Assembly (NCBI GenBank): GCA_031404815.1 | Contig: JANNIH010000072.1 | Coordinates: 12,100-76,099 of the forward strand | Source: Holophagales bacterium | Lineage (GTDB): Bacteria; Acidobacteriota; Thermoanaerobaculia; Multivoradales; UBA5704 | Reading direction: 5' to 3' | DNA length: 64,000 nt | Part shown: in pieces, positions 9,001 to 15,000 of the stretch | Position numbering within the stretch: the stretch's first letter is position 1 | How the letters are laid out: every line of letters starts with the position of its first letter | Made by a program: the position numbers

Positions 9001-12000
9001 AATCGAAGGCTGTACGAGCGCCGAGGTGCTGCAAGAGATCCTCCACCGCTACCACCGGCTGAACCTGCCCGATACGGCTCGGGAGGTCTATGAAGCGATT
9101 GTCGATCTCTGCTCCGTCGTCTTTCCCGTTTCGAAGGAAGACACTGATCTAGCGATTGAAATCCTCACTGAGCGGAAAGAGGCGAGCGTGCGAGACGCCC
9201 TCCATGCGGCGGTCATGCGAAATCATGGAGTCGAATGGATCGCGACGTTCGATCAAGGTTTCGACTCGATTGCAGGTATCAAGCGGTTGGAGCTTTAGGA
9301 GGTCCAGTACTATGTTCTCGGACAGACCGCGGAAGTGGGCAACTCCGCGGTTGGCGAAACGAGGTCTAGGGGCGATTCCCTAGAGTTCGCAGCGAGAGAA
9401 GGAGAAATTTCGTGACGCCTGAGTCTGGAGACTCGCCGCTCCCCTAAAGGCTGTCAAATCGCGGAAGAAGCGGAAAAAGCAAAAACCCCGGTAAGCGCAC
9501 ACCTGAGGCCGAAAGGCTTCGGTCAGCGGGTCATTGGAGCGCCCCCGCCTGTCCGGCCTTCAGGACATAGGTAACACCTCGACCTCAAGACATCGGTAAC
9601 AGGTTGGATCTTTCATTCCTGTCCGATTTACTTCATTTTGCGGGACGTACCACCGCCCAGGTACGTCTCGCCTCAAGGTCGATCTCACGGATTTCCATGT
9701 GACGGTAGCTCACAGGGACCCGCTGAGCGAAGGGCTGACAGCGGACCCGCTCCCCGGCAAGGGCCTCGGATACAAAGTACCGATACCCGCGATACTCTAG
9801 GCACCCGGCGCTGTTGAGCCGCAGCACTTCAGAACCCTGAGGATGCTCCCAATCTCGGGGCTTTGGCTCATAGCTCCGAGAGCTCTTCTGGTACCGCGAG
9901 GCCGGCACTTCCATCGCCAAGGCTTCGTGCGGGCGGACCTCGTTGTATTCCTCACGAAACTCAGCTAACGCTTCGACAAATCCGTCGAATGTCGAGGGAA
10001 GGCCGCGGTGTTGAAAGCTCGCCTTGAGAGTGCGATGGAACCGCTCGACTTTGCCCTGGGTCTGCGGATGACGGATCCGCCCGTAGATCAACCGAATCCC
10101 TTGCTGAATCAGGCGAATCGAGAATCGGGTCAAGCCATGTCCGTTCGTCGTACTCCACCAGGGAGTTCCGTGGTCCATCAGCATCGTCGTCGGGAGCCCG
10201 TACTGCTCGAAGCAGGTCACCAAGGGCGGCAGAGCCGCCTCTTCGGTCAACGACCGCAGGGGGGCCAGGCCGACAGCGAATCGGCTATGGTCGTCCAGTA
10301 CGCTGAGCGGCGTGCTCGACCAGGCATCCTGCCACTGCATCGGCCCCTTGAAGTCCATCTGCCACAGATCGTTCGGGGTGGAGCGCTCAAAGCGCCGCAG
10401 AGCCGCCCGTCCGTCTGGGGCGGGACCGGTCAAGCCTCGGCGTCGAAGAACGCGATCCACCGTGCCGGCGGGCAGGTCGATCCCTTCGCGACGCAGCATC
10501 CGGCTCAGTTTTCCCCCTCCCCAGCCGTGCTTCTTGCGTAGCGCCTCGACTCGCTCCTCCACCTCCGGTGAGGTCTGCCGAGGACTATGCTTCGGTCGCC
10601 GGCTCTTCGAAGCAAGTCTTTGAAGATTCCCCACTTCTCCGTAACGCTTTATCCACTTGTAGCCCGTCTTCCGGCTTATCCCAAACTCCCGGCACAACTC
10701 ACTACGGTTGGCATTCTCCTCCAACGCTCGAACCACAAACTGGATCCGTTGATCCATCGCATCGGTCTCCCGCCAGGGCATCGTCAGGGCCCTCCTTGGG
10801 CCCCAACTCTGCCCCAACCTGTTACCGATGTCTTGAGGTCGAGGTGTTACCTATGTCCTGAGGCCGGACACCCGCCCGCCCCCCTACCCAATCCAAAACC
10901 CCCCACCCCAACTCCACGAACAACCCCCGCACCGTCGGTATCGGCAGCCCGACCACGTTCGTGTAGTTCCCCTCGATCGCTTCGACGAACAGGGCGCCGA
11001 GGCCTTGGACGGCGTACGAGCCGGCTTTGTCCATGGGTTCGCCGGTGGCCACGTACCAGCGAATCGTTTGGGCGTCGAGCGGTGCCATGCGGACTTTGGA
11101 GATGGCCAGGGTCGAAGCGGTTCGGGGGTTGGGCTCGGCGTGGTGGAGCGCCACTCCGGTGTAGACCTCGTGTTCGCGGCCGGCGATTTTGGCGAGCATC
11201 CGTTCGGCGTCTTCTACGTCGGTCGGCTTGCCCAGCAACTCGCCATCGAGAACCACGACGGTGTCTGCCGCCAAGGCGATCTCTCCGGGTTGGACGGCGG
11301 CGGCGGCTTTGGCTCGGGCGAGGCGGAGGACGTAGGGTCCCGGTTGCTCGTTCGGTAACGGCGTTTCGTCGAGATCCGCGGGGCGGACGATGAAAGCGAG
11401 GCCGAGCCCCAGCAGCAGCTCGCGGCGGCGGGGGGAGGCGGAGGCGAGGACCAGGGGCGGTAGGGGGGTGAGGTTCGCAGTCAAGGTCTAGGGATAGTAG
11501 CCTGAGCTTGAGCCGCGGCATTTGTTTCGGCTTCTGGGAATGGGGGCCGCCCTTGATCGATCACGTTGCGCTGTCGTCGTTCCCCGATGGCTCCACCGAA
11601 AGATCAATCTGCTCCAGCAGGCTTGTAGGAATGGGCGCCATGTGGTGATCACGGTGGACCAAACAGGCGCCTCGCACACGGGCGGCGGCGGCGATCAGAG
11701 AGTCGGCGAGGGGGAGCCGTTCGGTCATCTCGCAGGCGAGGTCGAACGCGGCGAGGGCTATTTCTTCATCGACCGGAACGACTTCGTTCACCAACTCCCG
11801 ATAGGCCTCGGCCGCTCCGCGTGCCTCTTCGCGTGTAGCCCCGAGCACTCGAAGGCGTCGGGCGAACTCGGTGAGCGAAAGGCTGGCAGCCAAAACTTCC
11901 GTCTCGGGCGCCTCAAACAGTTCTTGGACCCGATTCCAGCCGGATTCCCGGCGAAAGTGGGCCAGCAGGGCAGACGTGTCGAGCAGAAAGCGCAGGGTCG

Positions 12001-15000
12001 CTATCCTTCGGACGCGCGCTCCGCCACGAGTTCCGCAACGGAGTCCCTTTCGGGCGAGAACCGGCGGCCCGCCCCAATCAGCCGACGCGCCATCTCGCCG
12101 CGATCGGGGATTACACGGACGAGGATCTCGTCACGCCCCTCGACAGGTTGCCAGTCGAGACGCCAGCCAGGCCTGATCCCGAGCTTGCGCCCCACTTCAG
12201 AGGGGATCGTTACGGTGTTCTTCTCGGTTACCGTCGTGACCATGGGGGGATAATTCTCCTTGAGCGCGGAAGTGTCAAGGGCGGGCGGTAGGGGGGTGAG
12301 GTTCGCAGTCAAGGTCTACGGATAGTAGCCCGGGATCGACTTCGCTTCGAGCCCGGGGCGCTCCAGGCGGATCTTTACCTCGCGGAACTTTTCGCGGTTG
12401 CCGTTGCCGCTATGGGACGACTGGTAGGCGAGCAGGTACTGGGTGCGCACCTCTTCTTCGATCGACTGGTAGACGCTGGAAAGCTCGCTCGCCTTCTCGA
12501 CGAAGAAAGTGCGCCCTCCGGTCTGGTTGGCGAGTTGCGAGAGCTTGAGCCGCACGTCGGCGTCCTTGGTCGAGAGGTTGATCCCGACCGAATAGATCGC
12601 GACCCCCGAGCGCTTCGCGTAGTCGAGCGCGTCGGGGAAGGTGAAGCGGCTCCCCTCGTCGCGGCCATCGGAGAGGAGCAGGATCGCGCGCTTGCCCTTG
12701 AGGCCGCCGAAATCGAACAGCGCCTGGATCAGGCAGTCGTAGAGGGCGGTGTTCCCTTCGGCGACCAGATTCGCGAGGCCCCCGGCGAGCACTTCCTTGT
12801 TGTTGGTGAACGGCACCGCGAGCACCGGCTTGTCGCTGAAGGTGAGCACCATCGCCCGGTCCTTAGGGCTAATCACCGTCTCGAAGAAGCGCAGCGCCCC
12901 TTTGACCGCGTCGTCCAGCTCCTCGGCCATCGAGCCCGAGGTGTCGAGCAGTATGCCCGCGTAGATCGGCAGGTCGTTCACCTTCTCGAAGCGGGAGATC
13001 GACTGCTCGGCACCGTCCTCGGTGACGCGGAAATCCTTCTTCGTGAGGCCATCGACCGGCCGCCCTTTGCGGTCGAGCACGGAGGTGTAGAGCTCGACGA
13101 AATCGACATCCACCTCGGCCGATTCCGGCGCGTTGATCAGCACCGTGTCCTCGGTCGAATTGCCGTCGGCAAGGTAGGCGATCGCGCGCACGTAGCTCAC
13201 CTTGTCCCCTTCGGGCAGGAGGATCGGCTGGACGAACGGGCGCTGGTAGAGGGTGGCGACGCGCGTCTCGTCGAGGAACATCTCCACCCGATCGAGGTCG
13301 TCCCCTTGCGGCACCTCGATCTCCACCTGGGCGCGCAGGCTCGAACGGTAGGTCTTGCCCGGCTGCGGCTCGATCAGGCGGAGCGAGAAACGGTGCGCAC
13401 CCGCGTTCAGGAGAACCTCGTCGACCGCGAGCTGGGCACCTTTGGCGTCGAGCGCCCGGACGCGCAACTGGTGGGTGCGCGGCTGATTGCCGAGCGGTAG
13501 ATCGACGCTCCAGGGGGGGCGCGCCTTGGACAAGATCGCCCGTCCATTCAGCTCGAACGCCAGGCGGGCGATCCCAAGGCCGGTGGTGATCGCCTCGACC
13601 CGGGCGGTGCCGGTCTTCAAGCCGGGCGACGGGGGGAGGATGCGCACCGTCTGTTCGCCGGCCGGAATCGCCGCGTTCGCTTCGGCGAGCCGGGGGTCGA
13701 TGGCGGCGCCGACCTTCGGTTCGCCGAAAACGGCGACGGAAGGAGCGTCGGCGACACCGGGAATGCCCGGAACGATGAGTTCGCGCTCGTCGCGGAAGTA
13801 GCGCTTGCCGCCGGCGTCCTCGACGCGGACGATCATGCGATAGACCCCGGGGCGGAGCGACCGCTCGAAGACCAGTGGGATATCCGAGCCACGCGCATCC
13901 CCTTCCGGGAGGCTGAAACGGTAGCGAAACTGGTCGAACAGCTCCCCCTCGCGCAGCACCTCGCCGTCGACCACGAAATCGTAGGACGTCCGCTCCCCCA
14001 CGCGCGCGAGACCGACCTCGGCTTTGGCGACCGCGAGCTGCCCCTGAACGATCGTGCGGCTCTGCCGCCGGGCCGGGAAGGCGATGTCGAGCTTGGCCGG
14101 CAGAAGGCCCGCCCCGGCCGGCAGTTCGGTCGAGCGGGAGAGGAAACTTTTCAGCCACTCCTCACCCGGCTTGGGCACGAGCGGCAACTTGGCTTCGAGC
14201 TTCGTCCAATCGATCGCCTGCCCGAGGGCGGTGATCATCGTGTCGCCGCGCGGGCACGCGGCAATGGCGCGAGCTGCACGCGCTTCGCCATCTAAGGGCG
14301 TGCCGAGCAGCCCGGGGGGCTCCGCGAACGCCGACAAGTTGAGCAGGCGCGAGGGTCCTTCGGTCGGGTACCAGAGGCGGTAGGCACCGCGAACGCCGCC
14401 AGCCGGTTGGTAGAAGACCAGGTTGAAGAAACCGTGGACCAGCTCGTTCGAGGTGTACGACCAGATCTCGATCGGATGCATCGCTTCGGGGCAGCGGAGG
14501 GCCTCGATGTTGGCCGGAACGCCGTTCCAAAGCAGCATCTTCGCCCGGTCCTCAGTCAAGTTGCCGAAGCGCTCGCGGGCGATCGCCGCGCGTTCCTTCC
14601 AGCGATCTTCGAGCTCGTTCCTCGCCGTCTCGGGGAACGGATCGCGGACCTGCCAGAAGCGGCGGATGAACGAGTCGCGCTGATAGTCCTCTCTAAGCGC
14701 CAGGAACGCCGCGCGCTCCGGCCCCGCGATCAGGAGCGCAACATCTTCGAGCCAGGTCTGGTGCCGGGGGCCAAGCTCGCCGCCGACCGGCGGGGCGGCG
14801 GGCGCGGGCGCGGGTGGCTTGGCGGCACGCGCGATGCCCAATCCGCTCGTCGCTCCCAAAGCGAACAGCGCTGCGAGGAGAAGGAGGGGGCCACACCTGA
14901 GCATCGACATCGTGGGCCGATCCTACGCGCCCACCGCCCTCCCGACAACGGCGCGGGACGAAACCGGCCGAACGAGGGACGGGCGGGGGCGGGCCGGTTA

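What the first reader, a model, noticed from the sequence alone, without database searches (positions are those of the whole stretch)
11455..12330. PIN/AbrB toxin-antitoxin cassette inserted between the vWA gene and maf, flanked by 48-bp direct repeats of the junction
A 48-bp sequence (last 4 codons of the vWA gene, the intergenic region, and the first 10 codons of maf) occurs twice, 780 bp apart (1 mismatch), bracketing a two-gene TA module. The PIN toxin N-terminus (LLDTSALL) lies upstream of the track-predicted start and overlaps the antitoxin stop. Such a long perfect target duplication suggests site-specific integration rather than classical transposition.
Basis: seen in the sequence. Interest (0 to 1): 0.6.

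Follow-up and report, generated by a model that had tools for sequence, protein, structure and literature searches.

The report
Toxin-antitoxin insertion with 48-bp target duplication
A two-gene toxin-antitoxin module was recently inserted into the 3-base gap between two tightly packed genes of an acidobacterium, copying 48 bases of that junction so both neighbours stayed intact; a different toxin-antitoxin module sits in the same gap in related genomes, but the module carries no integration site of its own.

Summary
A 48-bp sequence occurs at 11455-11502 and 12283-12330 with one mismatch. It consists of the last 4 codons and stop of the vWA gene, a 3-nt spacer, and the first 10 codons of maf. 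The two copies bracket a 780-bp insert carrying a promoter, an AbrB/MazE-fold antitoxin gene and a PIN-toxin ORF, all on the minus strand.

The empty-site test succeeds: five related Thermoanaerobaculia genomes have vWA-TAG-3 nt-TTG-maf with nothing between. Four others carry a different module (DUF4160/DUF2442, DhiTA-like) in the same spacer, with their own decayed junction duplication that has different boundaries.

The att-type integration reading is not supported. Close copies of this cassette in four other genomic contexts lack the 48 bp and lack long flanking repeats. The insert is a sub-fragment of a larger conserved array unit with arbitrary ends. No terminal inverted repeats or recombinase motifs were found.

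Best reading: illegitimate insertion with a long target duplication, kept because the maf start region overlaps the vWA end. The mechanism is inferred, not shown.

The inserted PIN gene has lost the GTG start found in six cassette copies elsewhere (GCG here). This is an ordinary toxin-antitoxin family with an unusual, informative insertion scar. Interest is moderate.

The parts
12316..14910 (-). Acidobacterial VWA/GWxTD-domain protein gene, the upstream neighbour. Its last 4 codons and stop lie in repeat copy 2.
   Evidence: Pfam VWA and VWA_2; NCBIfam TIGR03436 acidobact_VWFA 187 bits and GWxTD domain. Orthologues at 73-85% amino-acid identity over the C-terminal 800 residues in 8 relatives whose gene could be translated.
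12283..12330 (-). Repeat copy 2 (operon-upstream copy): the genuine vWA end GYYP*, the ACC spacer, and a duplicated maf start (TTG + 9 codons). The duplicated start runs in frame into the antitoxin ORF.
   Evidence: ORF 12001-12312 reads MTANLTPLPP-ALDTSALKENYPP-MVTTV....
11503..12282 (-). The 780-bp inserted fragment: promoter, antitoxin gene, PIN ORF, and about 58 bp of 3' flank.
   Evidence: Absent from 5 relatives. Positions 12282-11520 are 86.6% identical to L019 and 12279-11558 are 87.4% identical to L011, both in unrelated contexts. The last ~17 bp (11503-11519) cannot be assigned with confidence.
12250..12278 (-). Sigma-70-like promoter TTGACA-17 nt-AATTAT. It ends 6 nt before the antitoxin ATG, so the mRNA is probably leaderless. 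The cassette homology starts 3-4 nt upstream of the -35 hexamer.
   Evidence: The only promoter-like site in 11300-12500, matching 10 of 12 positions; shuffles gave a mean of 0.2 sites. The element is conserved in the cassette copies aligned and shows up as conserved 'LD...' upstream read-through in homologues. Consensus match only.
12001..12243 (-). AbrB/MazE/SpoVT-fold antitoxin gene, 80 aa, ATG start.
   Evidence: Pfam PF04014, 27.0 bits against a cut-off of 24.7. TIGR01439 AbrB, 28.1 bits against 28.3. 357 homologues at E<=0.001; the 120 best listed are 75-100% identical, and the few that carry a source name are Thermoanaerobaculia or Acidobacteriota.
11561..12001 (-). PIN-domain (VapC-like) toxin ORF of 146 codons. 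The first codon is GCG where six cassette copies elsewhere have GTG overlapping the antitoxin TAG. The nearest possible start is CTG at 11993-11995.
   Evidence: Pfam PIN 50.2 bits. D8, E45, D100 and D118 are invariant in the alignment. The junction reads TAGCG in the window and L001, against TAGTG in L011, L015, L016, L019, L020 and L021; L012 starts at a GTG two codons later.
11455..11502 (-). Repeat copy 1 (operon-downstream copy): a non-coding remnant of the vWA end (GGC TAC TAT CCC TAG), the ACC spacer, and the genuine maf start.
   Evidence: The single mismatch (G to C) lies in the remnant's Pro codon and is shared with L001.
10822..11484 (-). maf (Maf nucleotide pyrophosphatase), TTG start, the downstream neighbour. 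The open reading frame now runs on into the IS element.
   Evidence: Pfam Maf 199 bits. L001 has an uninterrupted 208-aa Maf.
9550..10870 (-). Context and control: a 1321-bp IS481-family insertion sequence with a 6-bp target duplication CCCGCC, absent from L001.
   Evidence: rve/HTH/LZ_Tnp_IS481 domains. Inverted ends are visible in the sequence. L001 joins 10871 to 9549 with a 6-bp overlap.

Best explanation
What it is. A VapBC-like type II toxin-antitoxin module (AbrB-fold antitoxin plus PIN RNase toxin, with its own probably leaderless promoter). It was copied as an arbitrary 780-bp fragment out of a multi-unit toxin-antitoxin array that is widespread in Thermoanaerobaculia, and inserted into the 3-nt spacer between the vWA gene and maf.

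What is shown. The insertion is lineage-specific. It duplicated 48 bp of the target. The cassette carries no copy of that 48 bp elsewhere. The same spacer was hit independently by a DhiTA-like module, which duplicated a different stretch of the junction.

What is inferred.
- The insertion happened by illegitimate (non-homologous) recombination. Candidates are a staggered double-strand break whose roughly 48-nt overhangs were filled in and ligated to a captured fragment, or a replication template switch out to the donor and back 48 nt behind.
- Only events that duplicate the junction survive. The maf start and its initiation region overlap the last codons of vWA, so a clean insertion would damage one of the two genes.
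- The two near-identical repeats now make the cassette precisely excisable, and re-insertable into empty junctions of relatives, by homologous recombination.
- In this genome the toxin is attenuated or decaying, because its GTG start is GCG.
For: - Empty sites. L002, L004, L005, L006 and L007 read ...GGCTACTATCC(G/A/T)TAG, then 2-3 nt, then TTG..., with maf starting directly after the vWA stop.
- Independent second event. L003, L008, L013 and L014 carry DUF4160+DUF2442 genes on the opposite strand in the same spacer. This pair is the DhiTA toxin-antitoxin type (PMC8198452). A vWA-end remnant CCGGGCTATGATCCGCAAACC sits immediately before the maf TTG. In L014 the duplication is 32 bp at 26/32 identity, scoring 34 against a shuffle mean of 15.5 (sd 2.3). 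It covers -26..+8 relative to the vWA-stop/maf-start boundary, against -15..+33 in the window.
- No cassette-borne site. Copies in four other contexts (L011/L015, L017/L018, L019-L021, L026) lack the 48 bp. In those loci homology starts at GCCCTTGACA (the -35 hexamer) and continues past the PIN stop into a shared downstream unit. The window fragment stops inside that unit's promoter (...CAAGCTCAGG|CTACTATCC), with at most 2 nt of microhomology.
- No long direct repeat flanks the L011 copy, nor a Panacea-type insert in L022 whose empty site has an 18-bp spacer.
- Extra constraint on the vWA end. Among codons whose amino acid is invariant, synonymous third positions are invariant across 9 genomes in 5 of the last 6 codons, against 25 of 67 such codons among the preceding 114 (Fisher p=0.04).
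- Internal control. The neighbouring IS481 element made a 6-bp duplication.
- Recency. The repeats are 47/48 identical. The insertion is shared with the 99%-identical L001 but with none of the relatives at 73-85% vWA identity.
- The mechanism of chromosomal toxin-antitoxin integration is stated to be unelucidated, and insertion sites are known to be reused (PMC7167474).
Against: - No donor sequence identical to the insert was found, so the junction microhomologies and the origin of the last ~17 bp are uncertain.
- Two independent hits on one 3-nt spacer among about 10 genomes is more than simple random insertion predicts (my rough estimate is a few percent). That leaves room for a targeting mechanism.
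- A second repeat of exactly 48 nt lies next to another PIN module in the same window (50149/51700). It is not explained by the selection argument and hints at a length ruler.
- The synonymous-site test is weak (6 codons, p=0.04).
- The staggered-break and template-switch steps are pure inference; nothing here shows which enzymes acted.
Confidence: 0.6

Rival explanations
1. Site-specific integration. A recombinase encoded elsewhere recognises a core within the vWA|maf junction and integrates small circular toxin-antitoxin cassettes there. The 48 bp would then be the attL/attR identity segment.
For: The same 3-nt spacer is occupied by two unrelated modules in different lineages. The repeat length is in the range of att identity segments. 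Both duplications include GGCTACTATCCGTAG-ACC/ATC-TTG. The flanks of maf are generally rich in toxin-antitoxin modules in relatives.
Against: Copies of the cassette in four other contexts do not carry the 48 bp or any shared end sequence that could be an attP. The fragment ends are arbitrary, the 3' end lying inside the next unit's promoter. The duplication boundaries differ between the two events. No tyrosine- or serine-recombinase motif occurs in the 64 kb (crude). No significant hairpin or attC-like structure was found: the fold z-score is -1.6, and Rfam gave no hit at the locus in the window (gathering threshold) or anywhere in five related loci at E<=0.1.
Confidence: 0.12
2. Campbell-type homologous recombination. 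A circle (cassette plus one junction copy) excised from an already occupied vWA|maf site in a related strain re-integrated into this lineage's empty junction through RecA acting on the 48-bp homology. The repeats would be a consequence of spread, not of the founding event.
For: A single crossover of such a circle gives exactly this structure. The repeats are 47/48 identical. In the vWA tree the empty L002 nests among DhiTA-bearing L003, L013 and L014 at 94-96% identity, which suggests gain and loss by recombination at this junction.
Against: It only moves the problem back, because a founding event that first created the duplication is still needed. 48 bp is near the lower limit for efficient RecA recombination (general knowledge). 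No other lineage with this cassette at this junction was found in the genome or metagenome scans; only the window and L001 have it.
Confidence: 0.15
3. Remnant of a larger integrated island. A bigger att-flanked element once sat at the junction and was deleted down to its stabilising toxin-antitoxin module.
For: Toxin-antitoxin modules are common cargo of integrative elements (general knowledge). Long direct repeats are typical of island ends.
Against: 763 of the 780 bp are collinear with a single array unit seen elsewhere, leaving no room for island remnants. The DhiTA-like insert in three of the four loci is also just two genes (~670-740 bp). No integrase pseudogene is present.
Confidence: 0.05
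4. Assembly artefact in a metagenome-assembled genome.
For: The window appears to come from a metagenome-derived assembly, and short repeats can cause mis-joins.
Against: Two separate assemblies that differ by 0.8% and by an IS insertion show the same structure, and L001 has one extra repeat mismatch. The ORFs are intact and the junctions are in frame.
Confidence: 0.02

Closest known systems
VapBC-type type II toxin-antitoxin modules (PIN toxin with AbrB/MazE-fold VapB antitoxin)
   Same: Two small co-directional genes with the antitoxin first. The antitoxin stop overlaps the toxin start (TAGTG in six cassette copies elsewhere). The PIN domain has the four conserved acidic residues. The antitoxin has an AbrB/SpoVT/MazE DNA-binding fold, and the module has its own promoter directly upstream.
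   Different: In this genome the toxin's start codon is GCG. The NCBIfam VapC equivalog scores far below its cut-off (19.7 against 80 bits), so this is a PIN toxin of a lineage-specific subfamily. Toxicity and neutralisation are untested.
Toxin-antitoxin modules inserted in intercistronic regions of E. coli operons (relA-mazEF-mazG, dinB-yafNO-yafP; parDE at relA-mazG in Salmonella), as reviewed in PMC7167474
   Same: A module sits between two genes that form an undisturbed bicistronic junction in relatives. The same junction holds a different toxin-antitoxin family in other lineages, and the integration mechanism is unknown.
   Different: Here the scar is fresh and explicit: a 48-bp duplication that rebuilds both gene ends. 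I found no statement of such long junction duplications for the E. coli cases in the papers I could read, and Mine et al. 2009 was not available.
Integrative elements and cis-mobilisable elements flanked by att repeats that rebuild the end of a target gene
   Same: Direct repeats of tens of bp reconstitute the interrupted gene ends on both sides.
   Different: There is no integrase and no element-borne att, the ends are arbitrary, and the boundaries differ between events at the same site.
Integron gene cassettes and Acinetobacter pdif modules (small toxin-antitoxin-carrying units moved by site-specific recombinases)
   Same: Cassette-sized (<1 kb) units, often toxin-antitoxin pairs, found in arrays and in varied contexts.
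   Different: No attC-like or Xer/dif-like sites were detected. Those systems do not duplicate tens of bp of the target (general knowledge).
DhiTA (DUF4160 toxin / DUF2442 antitoxin) of Dickeya dadantii
   Same: The alternative occupant of the junction in L003, L008, L013 and L014 has the same domain pair.
   Different: It is not present in the window and is relevant only as the independent second insertion.

Membership tests
VapBC-like type II toxin-antitoxin | Toxin with a PIN domain carrying the conserved acidic residues | tested here: met
   Pfam PIN 50.2 bits against a cut-off of 23.6. D8, E45, D100 and D118 are invariant among 4 homologues.
VapBC-like type II toxin-antitoxin | Antitoxin gene immediately upstream with a DNA-binding fold (AbrB/MazE/SpoVT) | tested here: met
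   PF04014 27.0 bits against 24.7. TIGR01439 28.1 bits against 28.3, which is borderline.
VapBC-like type II toxin-antitoxin | Translatable toxin gene coupled to the antitoxin stop | tested here: inconclusive
   Six cassette copies elsewhere have GTG overlapping the TAG. The window and L001 have GCG, and only a CTG lies 2 codons downstream.
VapBC-like type II toxin-antitoxin | Toxin inhibits growth and the antitoxin neutralises it | not testable with these tools
   Needs expression experiments.
att-flanked site-specific integrative element or cassette | Identical core sequence at both ends of the integrated element | tested here: met
   48 bp, 47/48 identical.
att-flanked site-specific integrative element or cassette | The same core is carried by the element itself (attP) in its other copies | tested here: not met
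   L011/L015, L017/L018, L019-L021 and L026 lack it.
att-flanked site-specific integrative element or cassette | Reproducible crossover boundaries in independent integrations at the site | tested here: not met
   The window duplication spans -15..+33 and the L014 duplication spans -26..+8 around the stop/start boundary.
att-flanked site-specific integrative element or cassette | Cognate tyrosine or serine recombinase | tested here: inconclusive
   No box-II or serine-recombinase motif in six-frame translations of the 64 kb. This is a crude regex, and the rest of the genome was not seen.
DDE transposon, insertion sequence or MITE | Terminal inverted repeats and a short fixed target duplication (2-15 bp) | tested here: not met
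   No inverted repeat at the insert ends, and the duplication is 48 bp. The adjacent IS481 element shows the expected 6 bp.
Integron gene cassette | attC recombination site at the cassette end and an integron platform | tested here: not met
   Rfam gave no hit at the locus in the window at gathering threshold, and no hit at all in five related loci at E<=0.1. No significant fold. No intI-like motif.

The most novel reading that the evidence does not exclude
Thermoanaerobaculia might have a dedicated, undescribed way of inserting promoter-bearing toxin-antitoxin cassettes at operon junctions. It would cut the target with a very long stagger of about 30-50 bp, possibly with a 48-bp ruler. Three observations fit this reading: the 48-bp duplication here; a second repeat of exactly 48 nt abutting the promoter end of another PIN module at truA/tRNA-Ser in the same 64 kb; and a duplication of at least 32 bp for the DhiTA-like module at the same spacer. 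If true, it would be the first mechanistic handle on how chromosomal toxin-antitoxin modules move.
Probability: 0.1. Interest if true: 0.75.

Novelty: new member of a known kind. Interest (0 to 1): 0.45.

Why it matters
How chromosomal toxin-antitoxin modules get into genomes is an acknowledged open question. The 2020 review PMC7167474 says the mechanisms "remain unelucidated to this day" and that insertion sites are reused. This locus offers a rare fresh scar with all three states available among close relatives: empty, occupied by family A, and occupied by family B. A donor-type array is also available for comparison.

The scar shows three things. The moving piece is not a defined element with its own ends or att site. 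The insertion came with an unusually long target duplication. That duplication rebuilt two overlapping gene ends.

This points to break repair or template switching plus selection, rather than a dedicated recombinase, and it gives a concrete prediction that can be tested by a genome-wide survey. It also documents an early step of toxin decay: start-codon loss with the catalytic residues intact.

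Tried and rejected
- The 'LDTSAL' peptide encoded just upstream of the antitoxin looked like a PIN N-terminal remnant. It is the -35 hexamer region (CTTGACAC) of the cassette promoter, conserved in the cassette copies aligned.
- Terminal inverted repeats or a hairpin at the junction: none significant.
- attC or other known structured elements: no Rfam hit at the locus or in the related loci.
- A recombinase in the window: none by motif regex.
- A role for the IS481 element: rejected, because L001 has the cassette and repeats but not the IS.
- Long duplications as a general mark of toxin-antitoxin insertion in this clade: not so. 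The L011 copy and the L022 Panacea-type insert have none. A self-comparison of all 262 kb fetched found only the two 48-bp pairs and one complex ~135-bp repeat in L012 that is not a simple target duplication.
- Extending the truA repeat beyond 48 nt: no significant similarity.
- The metagenome scan for more junction variants returned only 2 loci.
- Mine et al. 2009 (ccdO157 at folA-apaH) could not be read.
- The exact vWA protein is not on record in the contig index, and P0024 could not be looked up.

Full report
**1. Observation**

All genes at the locus are on the minus strand. In operon order they are: a second vWA paralogue (14998-17751), the vWA gene (12316-14910), an 80-aa antitoxin gene (12001-12243), a PIN ORF (11561-12001), and maf (10822-11484).

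There is no other copy in the window at up to 3 mismatches, and none of 100 shuffles gave two matches.

Read on the coding strand, the 48-mer is GGC TAC TAT CCG TAG / ACC / TTG ACT GCG AAC CTC ACC CCC CTA CCG CCC. That is the last four vWA codons and stop, a 3-nt spacer, and the TTG start plus nine codons of maf.

The upstream copy holds the real vWA end. The downstream copy holds the real maf start. 780 bp lie between them.

Domain assignments:
- Pfam: VWA, MazE_antitoxin (AbrB fold), PIN and Maf.
- NCBIfam: acidobact_VWFA plus GWxTD for the vWA protein, and the AbrB family for the antitoxin.

A separate assembly that is 99.2% identical (L001, GCA_031396975.1) has the same arrangement, with one further mismatch at the last repeat position. 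The structure is therefore not an assembly artefact.

**2. Empty-site test**

A scan of one genome per species with the vWA protein returned eight orthologous loci from Thermoanaerobaculia/Acidobacteriota MAGs. For the seven of those eight whose gene could be translated cleanly, vWA identity to the window over the C-terminal 800 residues is 73-85%.

In seven of those loci maf follows vWA.
- L002, L004, L005, L006 and L007: the junction is bare. It reads ...ATCCCGGGCTACTATCC(G/A/T)TAG, then 2-3 nt, then TTG....
- L003 and L008: they carry a different insert of about 670-740 bp at the same place.

A metagenome scan added L013 and L014, which carry that same other insert.

The insertion in the window is therefore lineage-specific. 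It is shared only with the 99%-identical L001, and it interrupts what is otherwise a 2-3-nt intercistronic spacer.

**3. The other occupant**

The insert in L003, L008, L013 and L014 encodes two proteins on the opposite strand: an 86-aa DUF4160 protein and a 98-aa DUF2442 protein. This domain pair is the DhiTA toxin-antitoxin system of Dickeya (PMC8198452).

Immediately upstream of the maf TTG, all four loci keep a decayed copy of the vWA end. For example, L008 has CCGGGCTATGATCCGCAAACC against CCGGGCTACTATCCGTAGACC. The copies share derived changes, which indicates a single older event.

In L014 the left junction also keeps TAG ATC TTG GC. The duplication there is 32 bp at 26/32 identity, scoring 34 against a shuffle mean of 15.5 (sd 2.3).

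Relative to the vWA-stop/maf-start boundary, that duplication covers about -26..+8. The window's covers -15..+33.

So two independent insertions of unrelated toxin-antitoxin modules hit the same spacer, and each duplicated the junction, but with different boundaries.

In the vWA tree the empty L002 nests among the DhiTA-bearing loci at 94-96% identity. Presence and absence at this junction therefore turn over, either by loss or by homologous exchange.

**4. What moved**

The antitoxin has 357 homologues at E<=0.001. The 120 best listed are 75-100% identical, and those that carry a source name are Thermoanaerobaculia or Acidobacteriota.

Looking up the contigs of six of the closest homologues succeeded for five and showed the cassette in other contexts:
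- after a CsgG-like gene (L011/L015);
- in toxin-antitoxin-rich stretches (L012, L017/L018);
- after a 153-aa ORF (L019-L021);
- on a short contig (L026).

DNA homology to the window:
- L019: runs from 12282 to 11520 at 86.6%.
- L011: runs from 12279 to 11558 at 87.4%.
- L017: 95.9% over the antitoxin part, 12285 to 11996.

None of these copies carries the 48 bp. The one context checked for repeats, L011, has no long flanking direct repeat.

Homology starts at GCCCTTGACA. That is 3-4 nt upstream of the -35 hexamer of a promoter-like site, TTGACA-17-AATTAT, which ends 6 nt before the antitoxin ATG. It is the only such site in 11300-12500, and its position suggests a leaderless mRNA.

In the other loci homology continues beyond the PIN stop. 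It runs through CCCAGAAGCCGAAACAAAT into a shared downstream unit: a promoter-like CTTGACAAGCTC..., about 400 nt with repeated ATAGCNGCTAT-type palindromes, and then a 140-145-aa ORF.

The window fragment breaks off inside that next promoter (...CAAGCTCAGG|CTACTATCC), with at most 2 nt of possible microhomology.

The moved piece is therefore an arbitrary sub-fragment of a larger array. It is not an element with defined ends or its own att site.

**5. State of the toxin**

In L011, L015, L016, L019, L020 and L021 the PIN gene starts with a GTG that shares its G with the antitoxin TAG (TAGTG). L012 starts at a GTG two codons later. The window and L001 read TAGCG, so the start codon is GCG.

The ORF is otherwise open for 146 codons, and the acidic residues D8, E45, D100 and D118 are intact.

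Only a CTG two codons downstream could initiate translation. I infer that toxin translation is strongly reduced. This could have eased establishment of the insertion, or it could be the first step of decay.

**6. Why a duplication, and how**

The classical alternatives fail:
- no terminal inverted repeats;
- no significant hairpin at the junction (z = -1.6);
- no Rfam hit at the locus in the window (gathering threshold), and none anywhere in five related loci at E<=0.1;
- no recombinase motif in the window (crude regex).

The IS481-family element 600 bp away is absent from L001 and made the expected 6-bp duplication, CCCGCC.

A Panacea-type two-gene insert in L022 sits where the empty site in L024 has an 18-bp spacer. 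It has no flanking duplication. Long duplications are therefore not a general mark of toxin-antitoxin insertion in this clade.

What is special about this site is the 3-nt spacing. Among codons whose amino acid is invariant, the last six vWA codons are unusually conserved at synonymous third positions. Five of the six are invariant across 9 genomes, including a TAT codon in a GC-rich genome, against 25 of 67 such codons among the preceding 114 (Fisher p=0.04). This is consistent with the maf initiation region lying inside the vWA end.

An insertion that keeps both genes working must then duplicate at least that overlap. Both observed duplications cover it, and they differ elsewhere.

My best explanation is an illegitimate insertion that creates a long target duplication, filtered by selection. 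The event could be a staggered break with fill-in and end joining, or a replication template switch out to the donor and back 48 nt behind. These mechanistic steps are inferred, not shown.

The 47/48-identical repeats now allow precise excision by homologous recombination, and re-insertion into empty junctions of relatives. This is also an inference.

**7. Rivals**

- Site-specific integration remains possible only with an unseen trans-acting recombinase that tolerates variable boundaries and needs no site on the cassette. I give it about 0.12.
- A Campbell-type re-integration of an excised circle would explain the structure but not its origin (about 0.15).
- A remnant of a larger island (0.05) and an assembly artefact (0.02) are unlikely.

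Two things keep a targeted mechanism alive: the reuse of one 3-nt spacer, and a second repeat of exactly 48 nt elsewhere in the window (section 8).

**8. Comparison with known systems, novelty, and the open coincidence**

The module is an ordinary VapBC-like toxin-antitoxin pair of a lineage-specific subfamily.

The situation parallels relA-mazEF-mazG and dinB-yafNO-yafP in E. coli, and parDE at relA-mazG in Salmonella. The review PMC7167474 cites these to argue that toxin-antitoxin insertion sites are reused and that the integration mechanism is unknown.

What this locus adds is a fresh scar with empty and alternatively occupied states and a donor-type array. Together they argue against a cassette-borne att site and for an insertion with a long duplication that rebuilds overlapping gene ends.

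I rate it a new member of a known kind, with moderate interest (0.45).

The most novel reading not excluded is a dedicated long-stagger integration mechanism, perhaps with a 48-bp ruler. It gets some support from the second 48-nt repeat, at 50149-50196 inside truA and 51700-51747 abutting a VapB promoter next to tRNA-Ser. I could not explain that repeat. I put this reading at about 0.1.

Noticed in passing
window 50149-50196 and 51700-51747 (context 49535-51950): A second direct repeat of exactly 48 nt (45/48 identical). Copy 1 lies inside truA, 106 bp before its stop. Copy 2 abuts the promoter end of a minus-strand VapB/VapC(PIN) pair (51051-51652) and lies about 80 bp upstream of tRNA-Ser(GCT) (51827-51919) and gltX. 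Between the copies are the truA C-terminus, an unassigned 188-aa ORF and the VapBC pair. Homology to relatives (L022, L024) stops at the truA stop, and they have different downstream genes. There is no similarity beyond the 48 nt. It is not a simple target duplication and remains unexplained.
   Followed up: partly
window 9550-10870: A 1321-bp IS481-family insertion sequence (transposase 9633-10817, minus strand) with inverted ends TGTCCGGCC(T)TCAGGACATAGG... and a 6-bp target duplication CCCGCC. It is inserted at the 3' end of maf and absent from the 99%-identical L001, so it is very recent. Because of it, the maf reading frame now runs on into the IS end.
   Followed up: yes
window 8673-9298 (+): A second toxin-antitoxin pair convergent with maf: a 75-aa weak VapB-like antitoxin and a 135-aa PIN toxin. 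It is also present in L001 but not in the other relatives. Their maf-downstream regions carry other small toxin-antitoxin-like ORF pairs (assigned from sequence inspection, not domain-scanned: ParE-like with an antidote in L005 and L014, DUF433-like in L002). Both flanks of maf are therefore plastic toxin-antitoxin sites.
   Followed up: partly
L011 4700-5600; L017 3690-4580; also L018, L019, L026: Downstream of the AbrB-PIN cassette in its usual context lies a conserved unit: a promoter-like CTTGACAAGCTC..., about 400 nt of non-coding sequence with repeated ATAGCNGCTAT / GATTGCGG-type palindromes, then a 140-145-aa coiled-coil-like ORF with no Pfam domain. A seemingly similar ~120-aa ORF lies near maf in L002, L005 and L006 (judged by eye, not aligned). 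No Rfam match. Function unknown.
   Followed up: partly
L017 3244-3700 (and L018): In this copy the PIN gene is replaced by a reverse-oriented HTH_3 (XRE) gene plus a second partial copy of the cassette promoter and start (TTGACGCGCGCAAGGAGAACTATCCTCCCATGG). The antitoxin and the 3' flank are kept. This suggests module shuffling through the conserved promoter.
   Followed up: no
L014 about 4540-4900: An extra ~330-bp segment lies between the DhiTA-like module and maf. It encodes a small secreted cysteine-rich peptide (...CNQVNCVNYCIEHGGSGGWCTPTGVCVCT...), defensin- or bacteriocin-like by eye.
   Followed up: no
L022 4738-5773 compared with L024 4772-4789: A SocA_Panacea-domain gene plus a 105-aa ORF is inserted between two genes that are 18 bp apart in L024, with no flanking duplication. 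I used it as a contrast case.
   Followed up: yes
window 28159-28265: An Acido-Lenti-1 sRNA match (28220-28265, 40 bits) lies within a tandem pair of about 44-nt repeats (28159-28249). There is also a tRNA at 26565-26637.
   Followed up: no
window 12316-17751: The vWA gene and its upstream neighbour are tandem paralogues (~47% amino-acid identity). The pair is conserved in the relatives where the upstream region was recovered. In L008 the tblastn match to the vWA gene is split into two pieces near its 3' end, consistent with a frameshift.
   Followed up: partly
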